From sequence record MH791411.1: a DNA stretch of 64,000 bases; one strand, 5' to 3'. Positions within the stretch are counted from its first letter, which is position 1. The number at the start of each line of letters is the position of its first letter. Origin of the DNA: Escherichia phage Ecwhy_1. Under the pieces are notes generated by a model. That model searched no databases and was not told where the DNA came from. It saw nothing but the letters and a program-made list of their open reading frames with translations. The position numbers and the translations under genes were made by a program. Positions 62,362-62,694 of this stretch are shown in pieces.

Positions 62362-62694
62362 TTACTCTTCGTCTTCAGTCAAGTCTTCTTGAACTGGATG
62401 TTCGGGGTGGTTACGGCGATGCAATTTGATGCTTTTGTCTTTACCTAAGACAGTTTCCATTTTTTCAAATGAATCACCAATTGCTTTGTATAAATCTGCA
62501 TCATCGGCGGTGACAATCTTACCACCTGATGTTAAAGTTACGGAATATTGATTCTTATGCTCTTTCTTCACATGAACACCGATATAAAGTACTGAAGAAT
62601 CACTAAACTTCGTTAGTGCATTTGCTTCTGCATGAATCGCGTCATTGATTGCTGGAGTAATATCAACATTACCTTGGATAACTAAATCTAGCAT
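62362..62694 (-). CDS. Ribosome hibernation promoting factor / RaiA (YfiA) family protein
   Basis: Aligns by eye along its length with short HPF/RaiA proteins (VIQGNVDITPAINDAI..., VTLTSGGKIVTADDADLYKAIGDSFEKMETVLGKDKSIKL); acidic C-terminal tail. Confidence 0.8.
   Translation of the reverse strand: MLDLVIQGNVDITPAINDAIHAEANALTKFSDSSVLYIGVHVKKEHKNQYSVTLTSGGKIVTADDADLYKAIGDSFEKMETVLGKDKSIKLHRRNHPEHPVQEDLTEDEE

What the first reader, a model, noticed from the sequence alone, without database searches (positions are those of the whole stretch)
62362..62694. Phage-encoded ribosome hibernation factor (HPF/RaiA family) co-transcribed with the lysozyme
The 110-aa protein aligns by eye along its length with short HPF/YfiA proteins. 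A phage copy could stabilise or silence ribosomes late in infection, or hold them inactive during stress. It lies directly downstream of the lysozyme gene behind a TTGATA-N16-TATACT promoter.
Basis: partly seen in the sequence, partly recalled or inferred. Interest (0 to 1): 0.65.

Follow-up and report, generated by a model that had tools for sequence, protein, structure and literature searches.

The report
Jumbo-phage RaiA-like ribosome hibernation factor homolog
A 110-residue gene in this E. coli jumbo phage is a real but divergent homolog of the bacterial ribosome-silencing proteins HPF/RaiA; it is already annotated and published for related phages, and nobody has yet tested what it does during infection.

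Summary
The ORF at 62362-62694 (minus strand, 110 aa) is real. [quoted passage not shown]

The window is an Asteriusvirus (121Q/PBECO4-type) E. coli jumbo phage. Orthologs are already annotated "HPF/RaiA family ribosome-associated protein" in RefSeq. Phage HPFs, including one from the related jumbo phage GAP32, were published in 2019, so the finding is correct but not new.

What I add:
- The gene is an old, vertically inherited, selected member of this phage clade (dN/dS about 0.2) and usually sits next to a LysM-lysozyme gene.
- Its architecture is RaiA-like (about 20-aa C-terminal extension with RR and an acidic tip), not HPF-like.
- It keeps most of the helix-2 basic track and K29/F30 but lacks Arg83 and the helix-1 lysines.
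- The lysozyme-HPF pair is framed by a conserved sigma70-type promoter and a strong terminator, in a region enriched for near-consensus sigma70 promoters. This suggests host-RNAP (early-type) expression, not late.
- A consensus promoter for the next gene is embedded in the conserved C-terminal codons.

Ribosome binding remains untested. The one phage HPF tested (rV5) did not co-purify with ribosomes.

The parts
62362..62694 (-). CDS, 110 aa, single-domain HPF/RaiA (Ribosomal_S30AE) family protein. Core residues 1-88 are beta-alpha-beta-beta-beta-alpha. Residues 89-110 are a predicted disordered extension (IKLHRRNHPEHPVQEDLTEDEE).
62700..62706 (-). Shine-Dalgarno-like GGTAGGT, 5 nt before the ATG. 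The 25-nt spacer to the lysozyme stop has no hairpin.
   Evidence: conserved AAAGGTAGGTAAATTATG in orthologs
62720..63646 (-). Upstream CDS, 308 aa from TTG 63646: N-terminal TM segment, LysM and Phage_lysozyme (GH24-like) domains. First gene of the putative bicistronic unit.
   Evidence: the 927-nt length matches annotations in 121Q, A4, Turkey3 and Turkey5:
63763..63790 (-). Sigma70-type promoter-like site TTGATA-N16-(TG)n-TATACT upstream of the lysozyme gene. The -10 block GTATGCTATACT is conserved in five Asteriusvirus genomes.
63697..63732 (-). Invariant element in the lysozyme 5' leader: (T)GTAGAAAGTCC-N(1-4)-GAGGCTTT(G)TGCA, plus a GCCTC arm that can pair either with GAGGC or with the SD GGAG(G). 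Function unknown.
62319..62353 (-). Intrinsic-terminator-like hairpin AAAGGGACAG-N6-CTGTCCCTTT followed by TCTTAT, starting 9 nt after the HPF stop. EJP2, Hallingskeid and Munch have a different hairpin plus T-run at the same place.
62354..62382 (-). Near-consensus sigma70 promoter TTGACT-N17-TATAAT for the downstream gene. It is embedded in the last codons of the HPF ORF: the -35 is the Leu-Thr codons of DLTEDEE, and the -10 starts 2 nt after the stop.

Best explanation
The ORF encodes a genuine, selected, single-domain member of the HPF/RaiA (pY, Ribosomal_S30AE) family. It has been carried vertically by the Asteriusvirus/Munch/Hallingskeid clade of ~350-kb jumbo phages. It is made inside the infected cell, not packaged, as the second gene of a short unit: sigma70-type promoter, conserved leader, LysM-lysozyme, HPF homolog, terminator. 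Host RNA polymerase most probably transcribes this unit from early in infection. By homology, the protein most probably binds vacant host ribosomes in the channel between the head and body of the 30S subunit, where mRNA and the A/P-site tRNAs normally sit. Its architecture is RaiA-like rather than HPF-like: about 20 extra C-terminal residues, with an Arg-Arg pair aligned to RaiA's ARRA and an acidic tip. It would therefore be expected to hold ribosomes as protected, idle 70S monomers and to oppose RMF-dependent 100S dimer formation. Shown here: family membership, fold, purifying selection, synteny and signal anatomy. Inferred: ribosome binding, RaiA-like mode and expression timing.
For: - Family: Pfam PF02482 at 43.1 bits against a gathering score of 23.7. 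The A1 profile hits every solved HPF/RaiA/pY type: long HPF 1e-8, E. coli HPF 2e-6, E. coli RaiA 3e-4.
- Fold: the AF2 core has pLDDT 70-81 with beta-alpha-beta-beta-beta-alpha topology. The top Foldseek PDB hits are ribosome-bound RaiA 8rd8_D and HPFs.
- Selection: dN/dS is 0.17-0.27 in unsaturated pairs and below 1 in both core and tail, similar to the lysozyme at 0.12-0.18.
- Contact positions kept (E. coli numbering from bioRxiv 10.1101/2025.10.07.680626): K29 12/12, aromatic-30 12/12, K80 8/12, K/R87 11/12, K89 12/12, K/R95 12/12.
- RaiA-type tail: the phage HRRN aligns with RaiA ARRA, and both end acidic. Among cellular relatives, proteins of 105 aa or less end basic, while those of 111-120 aa mostly end acidic. 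RaiA's tail is thought to block RMF binding, and RaiA prevents 100S formation (PMC10502375).
- Synteny: the lysozyme-HPF pair recurs in Hallingskeid, EJP2 and metagenomic L004/L014 at 31-46% protein identity.
- Transcription: the promoter is conserved, the terminator is conserved or replaced by another hairpin, and sigma70 promoters are enriched on the coding strand, 11 vs about 2 expected.
- Not in the phAPEC6 virion proteome.
Against: - No experiment exists on this protein.
- The only phage HPF tested (rV5, an independent and less divergent acquisition) did not co-purify with 70S/100S ribosomes and did not change 100S levels (PMC6375957).
- The Arg83 equivalent, described as the single essential arginine contacting m4C1402, is Thr in this family (0/12 Arg). 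K23 is lost in 12/12, and K26, E51 and D75 are changed. Arg83 is not universal, though: 21 of 51 cellular relatives lack a basic residue there.
- The TIGR00741 equivalog cut-off is not reached. An exhaustive profile search finds only 59 relatives at E<=1e-3 among 1.84 billion representatives, so the family is an isolated, divergent branch.
- By sequence, the protein is slightly closer to E. coli HPF (29%) than to RaiA (25%), so the RaiA-like tail may be convergent.
- Part of the tail's conservation (Leu-Thr plus exactly four residues plus stop) can be explained by the embedded promoter rather than by protein function.
- In Munch, an extra gene and an annotated terminator separate the lysozyme from HPF.
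- Timing is inferred from promoter type only. No transcriptome exists for the genus.
Confidence: 0.6

Rival explanations
1. Anti-hibernation competitor. The protein binds the HPF/RaiA site but acts for the phage by displacing or pre-empting host HPF, RaiA and RMF. Ribosomes hibernating in starved or stressed hosts, or driven into hibernation by infection stress, would then stay in or return to a readily translatable pool.
For: Mizuno et al. proposed this for viral HPF (PMC6375957). The RaiA-type tail would oppose RMF-driven 100S formation. The weakened interface (no Arg83, K23 or K26) would fit lower-affinity, reversible binding. Sigma70-type early expression fits a takeover role. The neighbours are translation and RNA-maintenance genes: CCA-adding enzyme, NUDIX, RNA ligase and 2H phosphoesterase.
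Against: A protein sitting in the A/P site blocks translation however it got there. No release mechanism is visible in the sequence. There are no binding or competition data.
Confidence: 0.2
2. Neo-functionalised fold. The protein keeps the S30AE fold but no longer binds the ribosomal decoding channel. It instead binds another RNA or protein, for example a phage mRNA leader or a host factor.
For: rV5 HPF did not associate with ribosomes. Several conserved contact residues are lost. The family is an isolated, divergent branch. An invariant RNA element of unknown function sits in the operon's own leader.
Against: The residues that are invariant across the whole jumbo-phage family (K29, aromatic-30, K89 and K/R95 equivalents) are exactly known 16S-contact positions. 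The leader element shows no significant similarity to 16S rRNA. No alternative partner is indicated.
Confidence: 0.15
3. The ORF is not kept for its protein. It is conserved only because it carries DNA signals: the embedded promoter and terminator for neighbouring genes.
For: A consensus -35/-10 pair overlaps the last codons and is conserved across genera.
Against: dN/dS is about 0.2 over the whole ORF with high dS. The Pfam match spans the full length. The fold is intact. The acidic character of the last four residues is kept with varying codons.
Confidence: 0.03

Closest known systems
E. coli RaiA (YfiA, protein Y; 113 aa)
   Same: Single S30AE domain followed by a roughly 20-residue flexible C-terminal extension with an Arg-Arg pair and an acidic end (EEVEEE vs DLTEDEE). 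Similar length (113 vs 110 aa). Helix-2 basic track K80/K87 kept.
   Different: Only 25% identity. No RaiA-specific NCBIfam hit. Arg83, K23 and K26 are substituted. Phage-encoded and placed behind a lysozyme gene rather than stress-regulated by (p)ppGpp.
E. coli HPF (YhbH; 95 aa)
   Same: Best pairwise match of the two host paralogs (29% identity, E=2e-6). Same fold. K89 equivalent kept.
   Different: HPF has no C-terminal extension and ends basic (KLKQH). The phage protein has 15 more residues and an acidic tip. [quoted passage not shown]
Phage HPF homologs reported by Mizuno et al. 2019 (rV5-like Vequintavirinae, 105 aa; Cronobacter jumbo phage GAP32, 111 aa)
   Same: Phage-encoded S30AE proteins in large myoviruses. 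GAP32 was described as a divergent copy in a jumbo phage of the related group.
   Different: The rV5 type is an independent, recent gammaproteobacterial acquisition: about 44% identity to E. coli HPF, Arg83 kept, Gly/Lys-rich tail, different neighbourhood. I did not retrieve or compare the GAP32 sequence here.
Orthologs already annotated in public records (121Q gp533, PBECO4, UE-S1, Turkey3/5, phAPEC6 gp292c, Sharanji)
   Same: 76-99% identical, same position after the LysM-lysozyme gene. Annotated 'HPF/RaiA family ribosome-associated protein', 'ribosome-associated inhibitor A' or 'sigma 54 modulation protein'.
   Different: Nothing of substance. This window's copy is one more allele.

Membership tests
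HPF/RaiA/pY family (Pfam PF02482 Ribosomal_S30AE) | Profile match above the curated threshold, covering the domain | tested here: met
   43.1 bits vs gathering score 23.7, profile positions 5-84 of 88. All 11 close relatives carry PF02482.
HPF/RaiA/pY family (Pfam PF02482 Ribosomal_S30AE) | [quoted passage not shown] | tested here: met
   AF2 model: E2-8, H14-30, E36-46, E49-54, E59-64, H65-94; core pLDDT 70-81. The top Foldseek PDB hits are RaiA/HPF/pY chains, TM about 0.55-0.68.
HPF/RaiA/pY family (Pfam PF02482 Ribosomal_S30AE) | Conserved 16S-contact residues (K80, R83, K87, K89/K91 on helix 2; aromatic-30; K26/K29) | tested here: inconclusive
   Kept: K29, F30, K78(=K80), K85(=K87), K87(=K89), R93/R94(=95/96). 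Substituted: T81(=R83), I89(=K91, with K90 adjacent), A26(=K26), E23(=K23) (contact list). R83 is non-basic in 21 of 51 cellular relatives.
HPF/RaiA/pY family (Pfam PF02482 Ribosomal_S30AE) | Binds the 30S decoding channel of vacant ribosomes and blocks translation | not testable with these tools
   Needs biochemistry or cryo-EM. The only phage precedent (rV5 HPF) was negative.
NCBIfam TIGR00741 (yfiA, equivalog) | Score at or above the equivalog cut-off | tested here: not met
   34.7 bits vs cut-off 40.9. It is a divergent family member, not an equivalog.
RaiA (YfiA) subtype | C-terminal extension beyond helix 2 (about 15-20 aa, flexible, basic pair then acidic end) | tested here: met
   Residues 89-110 have pLDDT below 50. 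HRRN aligns with RaiA ARRA and the end is acidic. The same length/charge pattern appears in cellular relatives.
RaiA (YfiA) subtype | Closer in sequence to RaiA than to HPF | tested here: not met
   BLASTP: HPF 29%, E=2e-6; RaiA 25%, E=5e-5. Profile: HPF 1.8e-6 vs RaiA 2.6e-4.
RaiA (YfiA) subtype | Prevents RMF binding and 100S formation | not testable with these tools
   Needs sucrose-gradient or cryo-EM assays.
Long HPF (Gram-positive type) | C-terminal dimerisation domain (protein of about 180-190 aa) | tested here: not met
   The protein is 110 aa with no second domain and no further Pfam hit.

The most novel reading that the evidence does not exclude
The jumbo-phage protein is a dedicated viral ribosome-management factor. 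It would be expressed from host sigma70 promoters as soon as the genome enters, and would use a RaiA-type tail and a remodelled rRNA interface (no Arg83, K23 or K26) to bind reversibly. This would keep host ribosomes as protected 70S monomers and block host RMF/HPF-driven 100S hibernation, or ribosome-targeting defence, during a long infection of slow-growing gut bacteria. The invariant leader element of its operon might provide translational control.
Probability: 0.2. Interest if true: 0.6.

Novelty: already known. Interest (0 to 1): 0.28.

Why it matters
Phage-encoded hibernation-factor homologs have been catalogued since 2019, but none has a demonstrated function, and the one direct test was negative. 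This clade's copy has been conserved across several host genera under purifying selection, so it does something useful for the phage. Its RaiA-like tail gives a concrete, testable prediction: it should stabilise 70S and oppose 100S. A positive result would give the first mechanism by which a virus takes over bacterial ribosome dormancy. That bears on phage infection of stationary-phase cells and on phage therapy with jumbo coliphages. As a genome-scan finding, however, it re-discovers an existing annotation.

Tried and rejected
- A net-charge argument against ribosome binding: the core net charge (-3) equals that of E. coli HPF, so it is uninformative.
- The leader element as a 16S rRNA mimic for autoregulation by the HPF homolog: local alignment to E. 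coli 16S is no better than shuffles (232/500 and 136/500; 13/500 for the Munch variant, matching near 16S positions 188-201, far from the decoding centre). Rejected at the primary-sequence level.
- Rfam: no family matches 61800-64000 at E<=1.
- The leader 12-mer as a general phage promoter motif: there is only one exact copy in the 64-kb window, and 2-mismatch matches (11 vs 5.5 +/- 2.5) are at most marginally above chance. It occurs once per related genome, always before this lysozyme gene; the one other viral-contig hit (L015) is a chance match in an unrelated phage.
- A uORF in the leader: ATG/GTG is present only in some Asteriusvirus copies and absent in EJP2, Munch, L004, L014 and L016.
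- Gene decay in Salmonella phages SD-1/2/6/15 as evidence of dispensability: in SD-1 and SD-6 (the two aligned to 121Q) the region is 99.4-99.8% identical but has scattered 37-180-bp deletions in both the lysozyme and the HPF genes. Assembly artefacts or laboratory deletions explain this more simply.
- P0013 (1605 aa, 29 repeats), the second-best profile hit: a tandem-repeat, assembly-like protein, not a relative.
- Virion packaging of the protein: not in the phAPEC6 virion proteome list.
- tRNA genes in the window: none.
- The first structure-prediction call failed and was repeated.

Full report
**1. Observation**

A GGTAGGT Shine-Dalgarno-like site (62700-62706) lies 5 nt upstream of the ATG.

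The 25-nt spacer to the upstream stop codon contains no hairpin. The upstream gene is a TM-LysM-Phage_lysozyme protein (Pfam PF00959 1.4e-9, LysM 2.5e-4). Its true start is the TTG at 63646, behind AAAGGAGG, which gives 308 aa. That equals the 927-nt annotation in 121Q, A4, Turkey3 and Turkey5.

**2. Identity of the protein**

- Pfam Ribosomal_S30AE matches at E=7.4e-11 and 43.1 bits (gathering score 23.7), over profile positions 5-84 of 88.
- NCBIfam TIGR00741 (yfiA, equivalog) aligns over 4-96 of 102 but scores 34.7, below its cut-off of 40.9.
- PHROG 34864 ("unknown function") matches at 3e-53, and the S30EA PHROG 8990 at 3.8e-5.
- phmmer and a family profile hit solved HPF, RaiA and pY chains of every type.
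- An AlphaFold2 model (mean pLDDT 69.7; core blocks 69-81; residues 88-110 below 50) has the family's beta-alpha-beta-beta-beta-alpha topology.
- The best Foldseek PDB matches are ribosome-bound RaiA (8rd8_D), Listeria, Thermus, Vibrio and E. coli HPFs, and chloroplast pY.

Family membership is therefore secure.

**3. Where the window comes from, and prior knowledge**

The 1.8-kb region is 96% identical to Escherichia virus TH47, 92% to Turkey3 and fEgEco12, and 84% to 121Q and PBECO4. The window is therefore an Asteriusvirus-type E. coli jumbo phage of about 350 kb.

The orthologous gene is already annotated in public records:
- "HPF/RaiA family ribosome-associated protein" in RefSeq 121Q gp533, PBECO4 and UE-S1.
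- "ribosome-associated inhibitor A" in phAPEC6 gp292c and Turkey3.
- "ribosome hibernation promoting factor" in Turkey5.
- "sigma 54 modulation protein" in several others.

The Sharanji genome paper lists it among translation factors (PMC11895373).

Mizuno et al. 2019 reported HPF homologs in rV5-like phages and in the jumbo Cronobacter phage GAP32. They expressed the rV5 protein in E. coli and found it in extracts but not in purified 70S/100S ribosomes, with no effect on 100S formation (PMC6375957).

A tblastn search with E. coli HPF finds homologs in 130 phage records, most of them rV5-like. I found no later functional study of a phage HPF in the searchable library.

**4. Evolution**

Word-indexed and exhaustive searches show a small, isolated family. 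There are 12 close relatives. Only 59 proteins reach E<=1e-3 among 1.84 billion representatives, and only 5 reach E<=1e-10.

The nearest outgroups (P0014-P0017, P0019; 103-116 aa) lie on contigs of up to 258-351 kb. They correspond to Salmonella phage Munch, 7t3, SE_PL and Klebsiella phage fENko-Kae01 (73% identical to P0014), and to Erwinia phage Hallingskeid (46% identical to the window protein).

Gene order is conserved at this depth: RNA ligase, 2H-phosphoesterase-like, LysM-lysozyme, HPF homolog, small ORFs, CCA-adding enzyme, NUDIX, glutaredoxin, T4 gp13-like neck protein. Munch has one extra gene and an annotated terminator between the lysozyme and HPF genes.

Nei-Gojobori dN/dS is 0.17-0.27 for unsaturated pairs, and below 1 separately for core and tail. 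The adjacent lysozyme gives 0.12-0.18. The gene is an old, vertically inherited, selected part of this phage clade. The rV5-type HPF is a separate acquisition in a different context.

**5. Ribosome-contact residues**

I took contact positions from a recent structural comparison of HPF and YfiA on Gram-negative ribosomes (bioRxiv 10.1101/2025.10.07.680626). I then aligned 12 jumbo-phage family members with E. coli HPF and RaiA, rV5 HPF and 51 cellular relatives.

| Position (E. coli numbering) | Jumbo-phage family (n=12) | Cellular relatives (n=51) |
|---|---|---|
| K29 | kept 12/12 | K 32 |
| aromatic-30 (stacks on A790) | kept 12/12 | Y 21, H 17, F 5, W 2 |
| Y71 | kept 12/12 | Y 51 |
| K80 | kept 8/12 | K 45 |
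| K/R87 | kept 11/12 | K/R 42 |
| K89 | kept 12/12 | K/R 47 |
| K/R95 | kept 12/12 | K/R 22, H 11 |
| R83 (contacts m4C1402) | 0/12 Arg; Thr in 7 | R/K in 30 |
| K23 | 0/12 | K/R in 42 |
| K26 | variable in Asteriusvirus (Ala in this window) | K/R in 42 |
| E51, D75 | changed | E 37; D 29 |

The core net charge (-3) equals that of E. coli HPF. The interface is thus partly conserved and partly remodelled. This fits ribosome binding with altered affinity, but it does not prove binding.

**6. RaiA-like architecture**

E. coli HPF (95 aa) ends right after helix 2 with KLKQH. RaiA (113 aa) continues with ...[23 protein letters not shown]. The phage protein continues with ...KSIKLHRRNHPEHPVQEDLTEDEE.

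MAFFT aligns the phage RR pair with RaiA's RR. In K. quasipneumoniae YfiA, that RR pair contacts rRNA and uS7. All jumbo-family members end acidic: LTEDEE, LTENEE, VTDEEE, LTEDNE, LTESDE, LTDTEE, FTDAEE, YTDSDE, IVEDDE.

Among the short cellular relatives, those of 105 aa or less end basic, while most of those of 111-120 aa end acidic. RaiA prevents 100S formation while HPF promotes it, and RaiA's tail is thought to block RMF binding (PMC10502375, citing Polikanov 2012 and Ueta 2005).

The phage protein therefore works, by architecture, more like RaiA. By sequence it is marginally closer to HPF, so I do not file it as a RaiA ortholog.

**7. Transcription anatomy**

The promoter upstream of the lysozyme gene is conserved (the -10 block GTATGCTATACT; -35 TTGATA or TTGTAA) in the window, Turkey3, A4, 121Q and Turkey5.

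The hairpin after the HPF stop codon is conserved in five genomes. In EJP2, Hallingskeid and Munch a different GC-rich hairpin plus T-run replaces it at the same place. It folds at -19.5 kcal/mol (z=-4.0).

Sites matching at least 11 of 12 sigma70 consensus positions number 11 on the minus (coding) strand and 0 on the plus strand of the window. Markov simulations give means of 2.0 and 1.2, with a maximum of 6. For the related phage CBB, clusters of RpoD-like promoters were interpreted as the early region, with late genes behind a T4-like ATAAATA motif (PMC5259590).

I therefore infer host-RNAP, early-type expression rather than late. No transcriptome exists for the genus.

The phAPEC6 orthologs gp292c (HPF homolog) and gp293c (lysozyme) are not in that phage's virion proteome. 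The genus also has a separate 162-aa T4-type lysozyme with demonstrated lytic activity (PMC12805682). A link between the HPF homolog and lysis is therefore not established.

**8. Side findings**

(a) A near-consensus promoter (TTGACT-N17-TATAAT, 62382..62354) is embedded in the end of the HPF ORF. Its -35 is the Leu-Thr codons of DLTEDEE, and its -10 starts 2 nt after the stop codon. The terminator hairpin follows at once. Hallingskeid (TTGACA-N17-TACAAT) and Munch (TTGACA-N17-TATAAT) have the same layout. A start about 7 nt after the -10 would omit most of the 5' arm of the hairpin; the remaining RNA folds at only -5.4 kcal/mol (z=0.3). Upstream transcripts would therefore stop and this promoter's transcripts would read on. 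This means the pattern "LT plus four residues plus stop" is probably constrained at the DNA level as well. The acidity of the last residues varies in codon and identity, so it is a protein-level feature.

(b) The lysozyme leader carries an invariant element, GTAGAAAGTCC-N(1-4)-GAGGCTTT(G)TGCA (63697-63732). It is identical in ten leaders whose proteins are as little as 31% identical, and it is found only at this gene. A downstream GCCUC can pair either with the element's GAGGC or with the Shine-Dalgarno GGAG. That suggests translational control but is unproven. It matches no Rfam family and does not resemble 16S rRNA above chance.

**9. Verdict**

The operon reading is supported by sequence anatomy. 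The "late" and lysis-linked reading is not supported.

The finding is already known as an annotation and as a published class. The open question is function. My best estimate (0.6) is canonical binding in the 30S decoding channel with a RaiA-like mode that stabilises 70S and opposes 100S. The rivals are an anti-hibernation competitor (0.2), a neo-functionalised fold (0.15), and an ORF kept only for its embedded DNA signals (0.03).

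Noticed in passing
window 62319-62382 (minus strand): A near-consensus sigma70 promoter (TTGACT-N17-TATAAT) is embedded in the last codons of the HPF ORF and abuts the terminator hairpin. The predicted start falls inside the hairpin's 5' arm, so upstream transcripts would terminate while this promoter's transcripts read through. The same layout occurs in Hallingskeid (L007 5293-5350) and Munch (L006 5298-5362).
   Followed up: partly
window 63697-63732 (minus strand); also L003, L004, L006, L007, L009-L012, L014, L016: An invariant leader element, GTAGAAAGTCC-N(1-4)-GAGGCTTT(G)TGCA, lies upstream of the LysM-lysozyme gene in ten genomes across genera, once per genome. A following GCCUC can pair with either GAGGC or the SD sequence. 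There is no Rfam match and no 16S similarity. Function unknown.
   Followed up: partly
window minus strand: 62382, 60902, 58729, 43889, 43304, 43212, 38792, 17247, 14148, 13913, 1160 (first base of each -35): Eleven sigma70 matches of at least 11/12 lie on the coding strand and none on the other strand (about 2 and 1 expected). Those checked (60902, 58729, 62382) are embedded in the 3' end of the preceding ORF. This suggests a host-RNAP-driven, early-type region built of short promoter-terminator cassettes.
   Followed up: partly
window 60286-60408 and 61418-61543 (minus strand): Two paralogous 40-41-aa ORFs share the motif ...LEED(W/L)GV.EQ.TD....PEY.P.GF.ERL.DWLMGE. There is no annotation, and I did not investigate them.
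   Followed up: no
window 60420-60863, 60829-61242, 61927-62307 (minus strand); L014 3183-3602: A family of roughly 126-147-aa paralogs sits downstream of the HPF gene and shares a C-terminal motif (Q[YF].FIDDTF / TVDDTFGIEY). It matches PHROG 36582 (unknown function). The number of copies varies between related phages.
   Followed up: no
L003 12892-13302 (121Q gene 518; beyond the window's right edge): 121Q encodes a Dps-like 'starvation-inducible DNA-binding protein' about 6 kb upstream of the HPF homolog. This is a second stationary-phase-type host gene in the same phage.
   Followed up: no
L011 (EJP2) 1461-1574 vs L007 (Hallingskeid) 3967-4080: The 114-nt lysozyme leaders of an E. coli phage and an Erwinia phage differ at only 3 positions, although the lysozyme genes behind them have dS of about 1.4. 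This indicates either very strong constraint on the leader or a recombination event.
   Followed up: no
L019 (SD-1_S14), L020 (SD-6_S16): In SD-1 and SD-6, the lysozyme-HPF region is 99.4-99.8% identical to 121Q but has scattered 37-180-bp deletions that fragment both genes; the whole SD-series genomes are 310-326 kb. This looks like assembly artefact or laboratory deletion rather than natural gene loss. The HPF 3' end with its embedded promoter is retained in the SD-1 and SD-6 records I read.
   Followed up: partly
P0013 (1605 aa, from the representatives library): A protein made of 29 near-identical roughly 53-aa repeats scored second in the profile search. It is probably an assembly loop artefact and not a relative.
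   Followed up: no
window 57881-60284 and 63814-63993 (minus strand): The neighbourhood encodes RNA and translation-maintenance genes: CCA-adding tRNA nucleotidyltransferase (59169-60284), NUDIX (58649-59062), glutaredoxin (58411-58659), and a 2H-phosphoesterase-like C-terminus (63814-63993; PF22547, 23.6 bits, below its cut-off of 27). Relatives have an RNA ligase just upstream. The HPF homolog may belong to a translation-apparatus repair or protection module.
   Followed up: partly
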